Source of the DNA: Podarcis gaigeae
Taxonomy: Eukaryota
NCBI GenBank assembly: GCA_964106915.2
Contig: OZ066916.1
DNA length: 64,000 bases
Strand: one strand, 5' to 3'
Position 1 is the first letter of the stretch. Every line of letters starts with the position of its first letter. Shown here one piece after another: positions 5,301 to 11,300 of the stretch. The position numbers were made by a program.

Positions 5301-8300
5301 GTTTATTCTGTGTACAATTCTGCCAGCAATTACCATCACCATCTGTTACTTGGGTATAGCCTGGAAGGTTCATAAAACCTATCAAAAGATGCAGAACTTC
5401 AACAGGACTTCAAATGCAGCAAAGCTGGAGAAGAAATTGACATTGGTGGGTATGTGTTGTTGTGAGCAGAGTATTTTTGTATTTTAAAGAGCAATAGGAA
5501 CACAGTGTTCCTTTGACTCAGACATTGATTCTGTCCCTACAGATTGAAAATTATTGTCAAAATATTGGGGAAATGCCAAAGCACTTATGGATGCTGTGGA
5601 CTGGGCTGTTTGTGTGTGTTTGCCTTCATGTATGGTTTGTGTTCCATTTGAGTTGCAGACATTGAGCAACTCCTCTGTTTTTCAGTTGTTAGATTCATTG
5701 GTATGAAATCTTATTGTATTAATGCGAAATAATATTAATATTCAAAATATTTATACCCCACACATCTGGTTGGGTTTTCGCAGCCACATACATACTGGGG
5801 ACTAACTTAATGATGAACCTGTATACTGTAAGACTCTCAGATCTTGCAATACATGGGCTCATAGAGGAACCATGTGGTATATATATTGCTATTGTATGAG
5901 ATGTTGAGGTCCTGCCATATTTTCTTCTATAGGACTATAATTTGAAACAGGTGACATTCCATTATGATGTAAAGCATCTGATAAACACAAAGGATGCTGT
6001 TCTTAATTTCTTATCCTGATCTTGTGTTATTTTATTCTGCTGGAGGGCTGCTGTAGTGCAGAGGATACTGCTTTTGGGTCTTAGGATAAAATGGACAGCC
6101 TAAAATGAATGCAAGAGCCAATTGTTTAAATATCTCTTAAATGTTAAAGCACTAATCCTTCATTTCTCTCTCACCGATTCAAAATAACAGATAGAGAAGG
6201 AGAAAATATAAAAAGCCAGCCAGTAACTAACTATAAGTGGTTGTTTTTACAGATGGCTGTACTGATCAGTGTGGGATTCCTCAGCGCATGGACACCATAT
6301 GCCGCAGTCAGCTTCTGGTCAATATTTCACTCCAGTGAATCAATACCACCCATCGTTACCTTGTTGCCATGTCTTTTTGCTAAATCCTCAACAGCCTACA
6401 ACCCTTTCATTTACTATGCTTTCAGCAAAACTTTCCGGCGTGAAATTAAGCGCCTCCAGTGCTGCTGTAGTCAGAAAGTTTACTTTAGCACCAAGCATAC
6501 CAATAGCCATGTGTCAGTGATTTGGTCAGGAAGGGATAACGCGCACATTTCTTCATTCAGAAAGACAGATAGTGGAGAAGTTCCAAATCCATCCGCTGCA
6601 GCTGCAGAAGTCTTATTTGAAAACGTTGCTCTAAAGTCCAGATCATGAAATCTCCCAGGGAAACACTGCAAGGGCAGTAATTCCTAGGAAGTTTATAATA
6701 AACTGCTTGCAGGATAATTCCGAGGTCTCTGTTCTTTAAAAAAAAGGACCTGCCGGCAAGAACTGAGGAATCTCAATGAATTTTGAGCACATGGACTAAG
6801 TTAGAGTTTACTATACTGTATTAATAGCTGGCAGAGGAGGTATTTAGGCAGTTAAAAAGAGATTGTAATGTCAGTGAACTTGGCATTTGTTTTTGTGCTT
6901 TTGTTGGACTGTATGGGATGCTGAGCTCAGGTGTCAATGATGGAGTCTCAAGAGGCACAGGCGTCTTGAAGAATAATAAGAAAAGACCTTTGCTTAACGG
7001 GCTGTTAACACCTCCCCCTTCGATACTTCTATTAAGGCTGTTGAGCAAGAACCTTACAAAAAATGGACTTTTCATAAAAGGGTCGCTCTATCCGTCTTGT
7101 GCATGTCATCTCAGTACTGGATTTGTGAGGTCACAGAACTGGAAACCGCCCACCAACTTCAGACTCTACAGAGGCTATTGAGAAGGAAAAGAAAAAGGTA
7201 GACCAGGCATAGGCAACCTTCGCCCTCCAGATGTTTTGGACTACAATTCCCATCATCCTTGACCACTGGTCCTGTTAGCTAGGGATCATGGGAGTTGTAG
7301 GCCAAAACATCTGGAGGGCCAAAGGTTGCCCGTGCCCGTCTGGAGGCAGACCACCAGGGGTAGGAAATGCATATTTGTCAATCTGACAAGCAAACAAAGC
7401 TAGGACAACGAGACTGAACTGAACTGAAAGGGCAAGAGGCATGTGAATAAACAGTATGAAACAGCAGGACATAATTTCACCACCTTTCTGTATCAGTAAC
7501 ATTTATTTTAAATTGTAATTTGCATTTCCAAAGATCTGAAATGTATTTCAGATATAATGCCGTCTTATATGCAAAAATTTTAAATTTACTCATTTCATTT
7601 AGATTCTTTGATAGATCTTACATACATATGTAATAATATTGCAGATGATTTCCCACTTTCTTAGAAAGCATAAGGCAACACCAGAAATTGTAGATGATTT
7701 AAATTTTTTATCAACAAATCACAATGCATCAACACAAACTATAAGATATAAGGTTTGTTATGAGACAGAGGTTTACAGAGATTGCTGCCTCATTTCCAAG
7801 CATTTCTCGATATCATCAAGAACTTGGACAGCTGCCTTTGGGATTCGGGTTCCAGGGCCAAATATATTGGAAACACCAGAGGCATACAAGAAGTCATAAT
7901 CCTGTGCAGGAGAAAAACAGACATAAAACATACCGTACATGCAAACTTTGTAAAGTAAAATTCTGCAGAACATATGCTAAAAGAGCAGAGTTTAGCGATG
8001 GCAGGTCAGGAGGTAGCACACATGGAGAAGGGAAAATAACTTGGTATGCTAGCTATGGGGGAAAACAGTGATGCTCTCACCTACGCAAACCCCGCCATGT
8101 GTGCAAAGTCCTAGTGACTACAAGTTCAAGCAATCTCTGCTCTAGGTGTTATCCTATGTAACATAAAGAATGAAATCATCAAAAGTGGTGAACATTTTCA
8201 CCTCTGCTCCAAGACAACCAGAGACTTGTGGCTCTATACAAATCTTTTGCCAGGTGCAACAATTATACCAAGGTCAAGAGATTCAAAGCAGAAAAGCAAA

Positions 8301-11300
8301 TTCTACCAGCCCTTTCTTCCCTTCTTCTTCCTAACTATTTAAACCAATTCATGAACTAAGAACTTCTACACTGACCACTAATAATGAAACATATGTTGTA
8401 GATATTTCTCCACATTTATTATGCTATTTTTGTGATATACAAATGACATAAGAATACTTGGTACAGTATACTTATTTGTATAACAATATTCTTGTTTATA
8501 ACCCCACCCCACCCCACCCCACCCCCCAGAAAAAAACAAATTCTGGAAGAAGAAAAATTATATAGTTTCTATTTCAGTAAAGGAAACTGGTCCCTTTTTT
8601 CTTCATTTCTTAAAATGTTTATGAATATTTTTAAATTTAAAAAGTGATATTTACATTATTTGATTATATTGGCAGTTTTCGAAAGCTTTTGGGAGACTGC
8701 TTCTCAACTGCATTGTTCTGTGAACCTTAAACCTAGAAACTACAGCGCTTTCCCAAATTTGCTGAAGGATTTCCACATTTCAAAAGCTAGATTCTATTTT
8801 AAAAGCCTTTCAATGGTGTTCATTTGCCTGGAGGAGGAGGAGGAAAAAGTAGATGGAGACCCCACCTCACTGGGAACAATTTAATCATCTCACAACAAGC
8901 CATCTTGTGATGGTGGTGCACAGTACCTGGGGAGGAATGGCGCCTCCACACATGAGGAGAATGTCTGGGCGGCCAAGGGACAAGCCCTTCTGTGGCCAGC
9001 AGCCAAGGTGCTCGCCCCCACGCAATGCACATCCGCATCTACCGCCTGCTGGGCCACTTCACGGGGTGCCTAGGAAGAGAAAGCAAAGGAAGTGTCAAAC
9101 AATATGGGAAAGAAGAATGCATAAAACCTAACACTGCATGCAGACCCAGGCTTCTTTTTTCACAGAGAAGAGCGACAAGAAAACACTAGGCACCAGCATG
9201 CACCGCTCAAGGCTGCTACTGGCATTTAGGTTAGACAATATGGGCGCCCAGAAAGTAGAGTACAGAGAGGAACATTGCCACCTATCGATGACATCTTCCA
9301 ACTCGGGAATCTGTAAAATCATCCTAGTACAATATATTCTGATAGTTACCTTTTGTGTGAACAGTAAATTGAAACAATAGGTGCAAATATTTTTTTTAAA
9401 ATTTATTTTACAAATTTATAAATTGCTTAAAAGCCTGAGGCCCACAAAGCTGTGTACCAAAATCTAAAATACCAAAAAAAAAAAAAAATGTTGTGGCTGC
9501 TTCTGGGTTCCCTCCTGCCTTGGATATATATTCAGGTTTTATTTAAAGAACGGTTTTCCTTAGCTTCCTAATCCCCACCCCTTTGCCCCCCAGTGAAGGA
9601 AATCAGGCTGAGAGACTGACTTCCCATAGCGAGGTTCACAGCTGAATGCCTTTCCCCCATCCCAAACATCCCTCTAGTCCCACACCTGGACCCCCAGGAG
9701 CCGGGGAGAGATGCTCTGGACCACAGCCTCCCCCCCCCCCAATACCTGGCAGGGGCTGCTTCCAGGGCTGGGCCCAGCAACGGCCTGGGGCGGCGCCTGC
9801 TGAGAGGCAGCGGGACAAGGCTGCGCTTCCACCTCATCTCCGCAACCTTCAAGGAAAGACACAGAAGCCCAACTGGACAAGAGCCAAGAACCCTTAACGA
9901 TTGATTAAGGTGCCCCGAGGCCGCCCCTCTCTTCCTCCTCTTCCTCCAGGTCTTCCAGGATGAGCTCTTCTGAAAGGGAAAGAAGAGAAGGCTGCCAGTT
10001 AGAGGGGCTTCTTACACACACACACACACACAGAGAGAGAGAGGGACTTTCTGAAGACATCCCTAGAAACAGACATTACCTTCTGGGGGACTCTCCTTCG
10101 TTTTTGCCTGAGCCTGCAGGGAAAGAAAGAGCCACATGGGATGTGATGCTCTACAGCTCAAAACAGGCCTCAGACAGAGACCTTTCCTGAGAAATCTGAG
10201 GGACTGGAATCAGCTTCTATGGGCTGAAAGGTTTTACCTTGGAGGTCCTTTCAAAAAGGGTCCTGCAGGGGGGGCGGGCGGGGGGCGGAGAGGGGGACTC
10301 GGGGACGGGGCAAACTTTATTTTTCTTTGCCATCCGCGAAATGGCTTTTCGCAATCTGGTAAACCTAGAAAAGAAAGAGCAAAATGTGAGAAATGGGGCT
10401 CACAGTTCATCCTCTCCGGATCTACTTCCCAAAACTGCTTTTTGCATTCATGCCTCTGAGCTCCCTATCACCCCAGAATTCAGTTGCACATCAAGGCACC
10501 CCAAGAAGAAGGAGAACACATTGAGACAGAATTTGACTCTGAAGGTTAATGGGCAAAATTTAGGCCACAACTTTATTGAGGACAGCAATGTGAGTGGTAT
10601 TGGGTTTCATTGTTGAGGGTTTTTTCAGTGATTTTACCTCAGGAAATAGGCCCCTGAAACGGACTTTGGGCACACATACAACAAAAACCATAATAACACT
10701 AATAACACAGTTTGACAATTCAGATTTGGATACACTGATATACCTATGACTACACCTTTTTAACAATATTTTCCTGCCTATCTCTCCTCCCCCTACTTCC
10801 CACCGTTATCCGCCTTATCGCTTAAATATTCCTTCCAGATTTCTTCATATTTATCCATTCTTAATTTGTGTCCACATGCAATTTGTTTGTATGTAGCTAG
10901 TCTGTCCATATTATCAATTCATGTGCTCAATGGAATCTTTTTGCGGCTCTTCCAAATCATCAAAACAAGTTTTTTTGCTTCTAATATAGCACGGTACACC
11001 CATTTGTTTTGACCCCTTGTAATCTCCCATGTTTCCAAAATATAATTTAGAATTAAATTTAATTCCGCTAAATAACAATTTCTTTTTATTACTCTTGCTA
11101 TAAATATCCTCACCTCACTCCAAAATGATCTTATTATCGGGCATTTAATCATCATATGTACTAAGTTCGCATTTTTACTCCCACATCTGCAGCAGTTGTC
11201 CGCGCTTGTTATTTTCTTCTGGTATAGTTTTGCTGGAGTCCAGTGGACTCTGAATATTATTTTCTGTTGAAGAAGTCTTAGTCTTAGATCCACAGAGGCT

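What the first reader, a model, noticed from the sequence alone, without database searches (positions are those of the whole stretch)
7773..9069. Orphaned, frameshifted 3' end of an essential enzyme gene (MMUT)
Seen: only the last two MMUT exons are present, tail-to-tail with OPN5L2. The penultimate exon has lost 25 nt, and no other MMUT exon (e.g. the KMGQDGHDRG cobalamin-binding exon) was found by eye in the 55 kb upstream, which holds LGALSL instead. Known: MMUT is the conserved B12-dependent mutase of propionate catabolism. Inference: the functional gene lies elsewhere and this is a duplicated stub at a breakpoint. True MMUT loss in this lineage would be remarkable, but is less likely.
Basis: partly seen in the sequence, partly recalled or inferred. 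Interest (0 to 1): 0.7.

Follow-up and report, generated by a model that had tools for sequence, protein, structure and literature searches.

The report
Broken MMUT gene tail at breakpoint
Only the last two exons of the vitamin-B12 enzyme gene MMUT lie here, one of them frameshifted, and they are most likely a dead leftover of a chromosome rearrangement rather than proof that the animal lacks the enzyme.

Summary
On the minus strand there are two MMUT exons with intact splice signals. The last coding exon (7773-7901) is 34/41 identical to human MMUT (E 5e-18). The penultimate exon (8927-9069) is 143 nt where 168 are expected, so the frame shifts. Two bacterial mutase probes and a small HMM found no other MMUT exon anywhere in the 64 kb.

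New points:
- Published gene orders (CDC5L-OPN5L2-MUT in sauropsids; CENPQ-MMUT-OPN5L2-CDC5L in chicken) show the stub sits at the ancestral MMUT position. Synteny breaks inside the gene.
- A 305-bp inverted, decayed copy of the OPN5L2 5' end (14976-15280; 11/304 substitutions, two indels) lies between the stub and a CpG island. This shows an old, real, duplicative rearrangement at this locus.

Best reading (confidence 0.55): the stub is a decaying relic of a duplicative rearrangement, and an intact MMUT lies elsewhere. I could not test that, because no eukaryotic genome collection was available. True loss of MMUT is not excluded (about 5%). The window looks like a lizard's, not human. Interest is modest.

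The parts
7773..7901 (-). MMUT last coding exon (42 codons + TAA), open and well conserved
   Evidence: Translation. PDB human MMUT E 5e-18, 34/41 identical. E. coli and S. meliloti ScpA tblastn hits.
7502..7507 (-). Candidate poly(A) signal AATAAA, 266 nt after the stop codon
   Evidence: Read from the sequence only. Not tested.
7902..8926 (-). Retained intron (1025 nt) between the two exons, with GT at 8926-8925 and AG at 7903-7902; holds an (ACCCC)5 microsatellite at 8501-8525
   Evidence: Sequence, TRF. The retained intron rules out a processed (retro-) pseudogene.
8927..9069 (-). MMUT penultimate exon, 143 nt instead of 168; the frame shifts inside it
8981..8991 (-). Deletion site: 11 nt stand where 36 nt (12 codons, chain positions 669-680 of 2xij) are expected
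   Evidence: Arithmetic on the alignments. The same 12-residue spacing is seen in 1req, 6oxc and E. coli ScpA.
9070..14975 (-). Presumed remnant of MMUT intron 11 (inference). Holds a 5'-truncated L1 fragment at 10673-11592 flanked by 26-nt direct repeats, and a tRNA-derived SINE at 13500-13868
   Evidence: Sequence, Pfam zf-RVT. No mutase domain in 106 minus-strand ORFs.
14976..15280 (-). Inverted, decayed copy of the OPN5L2 5' flank plus the first 168 nt of its coding sequence
   Evidence: Self-blast 90.7% over 323 columns. Alignment A1. 11 substitutions in 304 aligned nt, a 1-nt insertion and an 18-nt deletion.
3938..4259 (+). Parent of that copy: 154 nt upstream of the opsin ATG (4092) plus the first 168 nt of the CDS; contiguous with the rest of the exon
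15750..16350 (.). CpG island (GC 0.69-0.76, CpG o/e 0.4-1.06) with no recognisable coding exon; owner gene unknown
   Evidence: No Pfam hit in the flanking ORFs.
4092..6648 (+). OPN5-like opsin gene, three coding exons inside ORFs 4092-4433, 5044-5487 and 6148-6648; looks intact; tail-to-tail with the stub (1124 nt between the stop codons)
Evidence: Pfam 7tm_1 positions 1-86, 96-199 and 201-260 of 260.
25308..34300 (-). LGALSL (galectin-related protein) gene, looks intact. Exons seen at 25308-25577, 32439-32651 and 33332-33442; the first exon lies near 34.2 kb inside a CpG island
   Evidence: Pfam Gal-bind_lectin. PDB 5it6 galectin-related protein E 7e-36. ORF scan. CpG profile.

Best explanation
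The two exons are a dead remnant of MMUT left at the gene's ancestral position beside OPN5L2. A rearrangement with a breakpoint in MMUT intron 11 joined this locus to the region downstream of LGALSL.

The rearrangement was duplicative. It may have been staggered breaks of an inversion, a replication-based template-switching event, or a segmental copy of the OPN5L2/MMUT-3' block. Either way, a complete MMUT survives elsewhere in the genome. The stub, freed from selection, then lost 25 nt in its penultimate exon.

Shown here: the stub, its frameshift, the absence of all other MMUT exons in 64 kb, the break of the published gene order, and a second old, inverted partial duplicate at the same place.

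Inferred: that the junction lies near 15 kb, that both scars come from one event, and that an intact copy exists.
For: 1. Stub and lesion.
2. No other MMUT exon on either strand: (2738 ORFs; only the two exons below E 0.03). Pfam on 106 minus-strand ORFs from 9.07-17.3 kb found no mutase or B12-binding domain.
3. Ancestral order: 'genes flanking OPN5L2 in sauropsids (CDC5L, MUT)' (preprint 10.1101/127654, passages). A chicken chromosome 3 table row lists 'CENPQ, MMUT, OPN5L2, CDC5L' (PMC10119464, passages).
4. The inverted OPN5L2 fragment at 14976-15280, with 3.6% substitutions and two indels, cannot be an assembly artefact. It shows that DNA of this locus was copied in inverted orientation. 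Its decay (2 indels in about 320 nt) is of the same order as the stub's (1 indel in 272 exonic nt).
5. Precedent: 17 of 29 Drosophila inversions carry inverted duplications of genes or unique sequence at their breakpoints, explained by staggered breaks (PMC1885836, abstract). That model predicts a 3' gene fragment left next to the old neighbour while the whole gene moves.
6. Loss of MMUT function causes severe disease in humans (general knowledge, not tested here). A non-duplicative break is therefore unlikely to become fixed.
Against: - No intact MMUT copy was seen, and none could be looked for.
- The junction itself was not located. The sequence from 9.07 to 15 kb is called intron remnant only by position.
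- The OPN5L2 fragment is not predicted by the simple staggered-break model. It may be older than, or unrelated to, the MMUT break.
- Apart from the 25-nt loss, the stub shows no visible decay: 73 of 84 comparable residues are identical to human, the splice sites are intact and the last exon is open. That fits a young relic but equally fits a gene that was working until recently.
- The stub lies at the ancestral site, which is also what a unitary pseudogene (true loss) looks like.
Confidence: 0.55

Rival explanations
1. Assembly or haplotype artefact. In the animal, MMUT is complete at this locus. The join to the LGALSL region is a chimeric contig or a structural variant on one haplotype, and the 25-nt gap is a consensus error.
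For: - It cannot be excluded without reads.
- The stub's exons are otherwise pristine.
- The window is scaffolded sequence with a 200-N gap at 1869-2068.
Against: - The only N run lies outside the region in question.
- There is no satellite or long tandem array between 6.5 and 26 kb that would invite a misjoin: only 2 small arrays were found.
- Two independent errors would be needed within 6 kb, a false join and a false 25-nt deletion.
- The decayed inverted OPN5L2 copy (3.6% diverged) shows that real, old structural change happened here.
Confidence: 0.15
2. True inactivation. This is the only MMUT copy, broken in intron 11 and then frameshifted, so the lineage lacks B12-dependent methylmalonyl-CoA mutase.
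For: - The stub sits exactly at the ancestral MMUT position.
- It carries a disabling lesion.
- No other exon lies within 55 kb upstream.
- This is the signature of a unitary pseudogene.
Against: - The prior is strong: MMUT deficiency is severe or lethal in mammals (general knowledge).
- I found no report of vertebrate loss. Search one search returned 1 of 1 irrelevant paper, and search ('MMUT' with 'squamates') returned 0 papers.
- The high conservation of the stub argues against a long period without selection.
Confidence: 0.05
3. The gene still works with a giant intron. Exons 1-11 lie beyond the window's right end, LGALSL is nested in an intron 11 longer than 55 kb, and the 25-nt loss is an error or a rare allele.
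For: - The splice sites of both exons are intact.
- The last exon is open and conserved.
- LGALSL lies on the same strand as the stub.
Against: - It requires a whole foreign locus with two CpG islands inside an intron.
- It contradicts the published CENPQ-MMUT-OPN5L2 adjacency.
- It needs the deletion to be false. The 12-residue segment hit by the deletion has constant length from bacteria to human, so even an in-frame loss would probably be harmful.
Confidence: 0.05

Closest known systems
Human mitochondrial methylmalonyl-CoA mutase (PDB 2xij, 8gju)
   Same: The two exons encode the end of the cobalamin-binding domain. In total 73 of 84 comparable residues are identical.
   Different: Only about the last 100 of some 750 residues are represented. 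The catalytic barrel and the cobalamin-ligand exon are absent from the window. The reading frame is broken. Read in the shifted frame, the last exon ends at a TGA codon that ends 11 nt before the normal stop codon begins.
Inverted duplications of gene fragments at inversion breakpoints (staggered-break model; Ranz et al. 2007, PMC1885836, abstract seen)
   Same: A partial gene copy sits at a break of gene order, next to its original neighbour. A second inverted partial duplicate lies nearby.
   Different: That model was described in Drosophila, whereas this is a vertebrate. The partner copy at the other breakpoint was not seen. The OPN5L2 fragment has junctions on both sides and lies only 11 kb from its parent, which the simple model does not predict. 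A template-switching repair event would fit it better (inference).
Unitary pseudogenes of squamates (for example the opsin losses in snakes and geckos; Emerling 2017 preprint, passages seen)
   Same: A disabled remnant at the ancestral syntenic position.
   Different: Those genes became dispensable with a change of lifestyle. MMUT is a core metabolic enzyme, and absence of an intact copy is not shown here.
Processed (retro-) pseudogene
   Same: A non-functional partial gene copy.
   Different: The stub keeps its 1025-nt intron with GT-AG ends, so it did not arise through an mRNA.

Membership tests
Functional MMUT gene | N-terminal substrate-binding barrel exons (MM_CoA_mutase domain) | tested here: not met
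   No hit in the 64 kb with two bacterial mutase probes or with an HMM over 2738 ORFs. Pfam on 106 upstream ORFs was negative.
   The corresponding segment of E. coli ScpA (about residues 592-612) gave only chance hits, E 25 or more.
Functional MMUT gene | Continuous reading frame through the C-terminal cobalamin domain | tested here: not met
   143 nt instead of 168, with homology switching frame at 8981-8991.
Functional MMUT gene | Sequence homology of the C-terminal exons to MMUT | tested here: met
   E 5e-18, 1.5e-9 and 2.6e-5 against human MMUT chains.
Breakpoint relic of a duplicative rearrangement | Gene fragment abutting a break in the conserved gene order | tested here: met
   Published order is CENPQ-MMUT-OPN5L2-CDC5L. 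The window has OPN5L2, MMUT exons 13-12, then LGALSL.
Breakpoint relic of a duplicative rearrangement | A complete copy of the gene at the other breakpoint or elsewhere | not testable with these tools
   No eukaryotic genome collection is available. Genome contigs holds only bacteria and archaea.
Breakpoint relic of a duplicative rearrangement | Other duplicated unique sequence at the junction | tested here: inconclusive
   An inverted 305-bp OPN5L2 fragment lies at 14976-15280. It is not proven to belong to the same event.
Unitary pseudogene (true gene loss) | Lies at the ancestral syntenic position and carries disabling lesions | tested here: met
   for position; for the frameshift; for the missing exons.
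Unitary pseudogene (true gene loss) | No intact copy anywhere in the genome | not testable with these tools
   Only the 64-kb window is available.
Processed pseudogene | No introns, and a poly(A) tract at the 3' end | tested here: not met
   A 1025-nt intron with GT-AG is retained.

The most novel reading that the evidence does not exclude
The stub is all that is left of the only MMUT gene. On this reading a lizard lineage has lost B12-dependent methylmalonyl-CoA mutase through a chromosomal break in intron 11, and it must handle propionyl-CoA from odd-chain fatty acids and from valine, isoleucine, methionine and threonine in another way.
Probability: 0.05. Interest if true: 0.85.

Novelty: new member of a known kind. 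Interest (0 to 1): 0.3.

Why it matters
If the ordinary reading is right, this is a well-marked evolutionary breakpoint inside an essential gene. It shows in a vertebrate the kind of duplicated fragment known from fly inversions. It is also a trap for annotation pipelines, which may call MMUT 'partial' or 'lost' here.

If no intact copy exists, it would be the first vertebrate known to me without methylmalonyl-CoA mutase. That would bear on vitamin B12 dependence and propionate metabolism. A single whole-genome search would decide between the two.

Tried and rejected
- Pfam on the two MMUT exon translations alone gave 0 families at E 0.01 or better. They are too short for the B12-binding model, so I used PDB sequence searches instead.
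I then sent stop-free ORFs as alignment sets.
- I tested whether the CpG island at 15.75-16.35 kb is the shared MMUT/CENPQ promoter, which would mean an internal deletion rather than a break. Pfam on 133 plus-strand ORFs from 16.3-25.3 kb gave no CENP-Q hit; the best E was 0.038, for unrelated families. This is inconclusive, because CENP-Q exons are short and poorly conserved.
- Pfam on 150 of 162 ORFs of 55 aa or more from 37-64 kb (transposon stretches excluded, first 12 ORFs dropped) found nothing below E 0.016.
- The weak mutase-like hit at 57048-57113 on the + strand (E 0.036, E 0.65) was rejected. Its flanks show no further similarity.
- The parent and the copy of the OPN5L2 fragment are symmetric about position 9609, which suggested a palindrome. 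No other similarity between the two arms was found, so I treat this as coincidence.
- A 14-nt inverted repeat at 15246-15259 and 15456-15469 looked like a second micro-copy. Local alignments did not beat shuffles, so it was rejected.
- Rfam found no family in the window.
- A literature search for LGALSL/AFTPH adjacency in chicken gave nothing usable. That LGALSL neighbours AFTPH in human is recalled only.
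Full report
**What is there.** I read window 7400-9500 and translated the minus strand.
- Positions 7773-7901 give [42 protein letters not shown] followed by a stop codon. A pyrimidine tract and AG precede this exon at 7903-7902.
- Against all PDB chain sequences, this exon matches human mitochondrial methylmalonyl-CoA mutase (8gju, 2xij) at chain positions 699-739, with E 5e-18 and 34 of 41 residues identical.
- Positions 8927-9069 are bounded by AG (9071-9070) and GT (8926-8925). Read from 9069, they match chain positions 644-668 with 23 of 25 identical, E 1.5e-9.
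- Similarity then continues only in another frame: [18 protein letters not shown] matches chain 681-698 with 16 of 18 identical, E 2.6e-5.
- The exon should cover chain positions 643-698, which is 168 nt.
- Eleven nt (8981-8991) stand where 12 codons are expected.
- That 12-residue spacing is the same in human, P. shermanii 1req, 6oxc and E. coli ScpA (positions). Even an in-frame loss here would hit a segment of constant length.
- Read on its own in the shifted frame, the last exon ends at a TGA codon that ends 11 nt before the normal stop codon begins.
- I searched the exons and the two halves of the broken exon separately.

**No other MMUT exon in the window.** No vertebrate reference was available, so I took annotated bacterial mutases as probes: E. 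coli K-12 scpA and S. meliloti pSymB scpA.
- tblastn of each against the window hit only the two exons. E. coli gave E 8e-9 and 2e-3; S. meliloti gave 6e-7 and 4e-3.
- An HMM of the two probes against 2738 six-frame ORFs of 15 aa or more also hit only the two exons.
- The next best hit, at 57048-57113 on the + strand (E 0.036 and 0.65), shows no similarity in its flanks. I take it for chance.
- Pfam on 106 minus-strand ORFs from 9.07-17.3 kb found no mutase or B12-binding domain.
- These probes detect the least conserved part of the protein, the C-terminus. They would therefore have found the better-conserved barrel exons if those were present.

**Surroundings.**
- The + strand carries an opsin gene in three coding exons that cover Pfam 7tm_1 positions 1-86, 96-199 and 201-260. 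It ends at 6648, 1124 nt from the MMUT stop codon, tail-to-tail.
- LGALSL lies on the minus strand from about 34.3 to 25.3 kb and looks intact. One exon matches galectin-related protein 5it6 at E 7e-36.
- From 37 to 64 kb, 150 of 162 ORFs of 55 aa or more gave no domain hit. Transposon stretches were excluded and the first 12 ORFs were dropped.
- Transposons present: a CR1-like LINE with an 891-aa ORF, BovB/RTE pieces, an L1 fragment, and tRNA-derived SINEs.
- These repeats, together with an OPN5L2-type opsin, point to a lizard (recalled knowledge of repeat families). I do not take the window for human.
- The only N run is at 1869-2068. I left it alone.

**The stub is at the ancestral place.**
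- A chicken GWAS table lists 'CENPQ, MMUT, OPN5L2, CDC5L' on chromosome 3 (PMC10119464, passages).
- The stub is therefore not a stray copy. It is where MMUT belongs, and gene order breaks inside the gene between exon 12 and the place where exon 11 should be.

**A second scar.**
- A self-comparison of the window found that 3938-4259 recurs inverted at 15280-14976. This segment is 154 nt of opsin 5' flank plus the first 168 nt of its coding sequence.
- The copy has 11 substitutions in 304 aligned nt, a 1-nt insertion and an 18-nt deletion.
- The parent is contiguous with the rest of its exon. The copy has sharp ends on both sides.
- The copy sits between the presumed intron-11 remnant and a CpG island at 15.75-16.35 kb (GC about 0.75, CpG o/e up to 1.06). 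No gene could be assigned to that island.
- A copy this diverged cannot be an assembly artefact. It shows that old, real, copy-making structural change happened here.
- Under an assumed neutral rate of 1-2e-9 per site per year (recalled), 3.6% divergence means roughly ten to forty million years. This is a rough inference.

**Interpretation.** A break in the only copy of MMUT should not become fixed, because MMUT deficiency is severe in mammals (general knowledge).
- Duplicative rearrangements are known to leave such fragments. In Drosophila, 17 of 29 inversions carry inverted duplications at their breakpoints, explained by staggered breaks (PMC1885836, abstract). That model predicts a 3' fragment left beside the old neighbour while the whole gene moves away.
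- The OPN5L2 fragment fits a template-switching repair event better than the simple staggered-break model (inference).
- I therefore favour a decaying relic with an intact MMUT elsewhere (confidence 0.55).

**Evidence against this reading.**
- No intact copy was seen or could be sought.
- The junction itself was not located.
- Apart from the 25-nt loss, the stub is pristine: 73 of 84 residues are identical to human, the splice sites are intact and the last exon is open.
- A remnant at the ancestral site is also what true loss looks like.

**Rivals.**
- Assembly or haplotype artefact (0.15). Against it: no N run and no long tandem array between 6.5 and 26 kb, and it would need two separate errors.
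- A working gene with an intron longer than 55 kb that holds LGALSL (0.05).
- True loss (0.05). I found no report of vertebrate MMUT loss: search returned 1 of 1 irrelevant paper, and search returned 0 papers.

**What stayed unchecked.**
- Whether a complete MMUT exists in this genome, read support for the deletion and the join, and the orthologous region in related species.
- Whether the CpG island is the MMUT/CENPQ promoter or that of an LGALSL neighbour. Pfam on 133 plus-strand ORFs found no CENP-Q domain, but that search is weak for so poorly conserved a protein.
- Supplementary files of the cited papers were not seen. They may hold the exact synteny maps.

Noticed in passing
window 14976-15280 (copy) and 3938-4259 (parent): An inverted, decayed partial duplicate of the opsin gene's 5' flank and start of its coding sequence. 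It has 11/304 substitutions, a 1-nt insertion and an 18-nt deletion.
   Followed up: yes
window 15750-16350: An orphan CpG island (GC about 0.75, CpG o/e up to 1.06). It contains a GCATGCGC-type motif and has no recognisable coding exon on either side. Its owner gene is unknown.
   Followed up: partly
window 4092-6648 (+): An OPN5-like opsin in three coding exons that looks intact. A preprint reports this gene as lost in snakes and in Gekko, so the source is probably another kind of lizard. The subtype was not tested by phylogeny.
   Followed up: partly
window 43510-46681 (-): A CR1-like LINE with an 891-aa open frame joining a GDSL-esterase-like part, an endonuclease and a reverse transcriptase, plus a further 182-aa ORF. 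A 217-bp copy of its 3' end lies at 40135-40350 and is 97% identical, which suggests recent activity.
   Followed up: partly
window 53360-55088 (+): BovB/RTE-like retrotransposon pieces with endonuclease and reverse-transcriptase ORFs. The family name is recalled from the look of the sequence.
   Followed up: no
window 10647-11618: A 5'-truncated L1-like fragment (zf-RVT, E 6.5e-4) flanked by identical 26-nt direct repeats at 10647-10672 and 11593-11618. This is a simple insertion, not a rearrangement junction.
   Followed up: yes
window 1049-1378, 13500-13868, 38803-39212, 48452-48802: Four copies of a tRNA-derived SINE, 76-86% alike. The copy at 13.5 kb has a 12-nt target-site duplication.
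   Followed up: no
window 7206-7336 and 23751-23896: Two self-complementary (hairpin-like) elements of about 130-145 nt that match each other at up to 90% identity, as a MITE would. One lies between the opsin and MMUT 3' ends.
   Followed up: no
window 25308-34300 (-): LGALSL looks complete and highly conserved. Its first exon lies in a very GC-rich CpG island at 34.0-34.7 kb (GC up to 0.81).
   Followed up: partly
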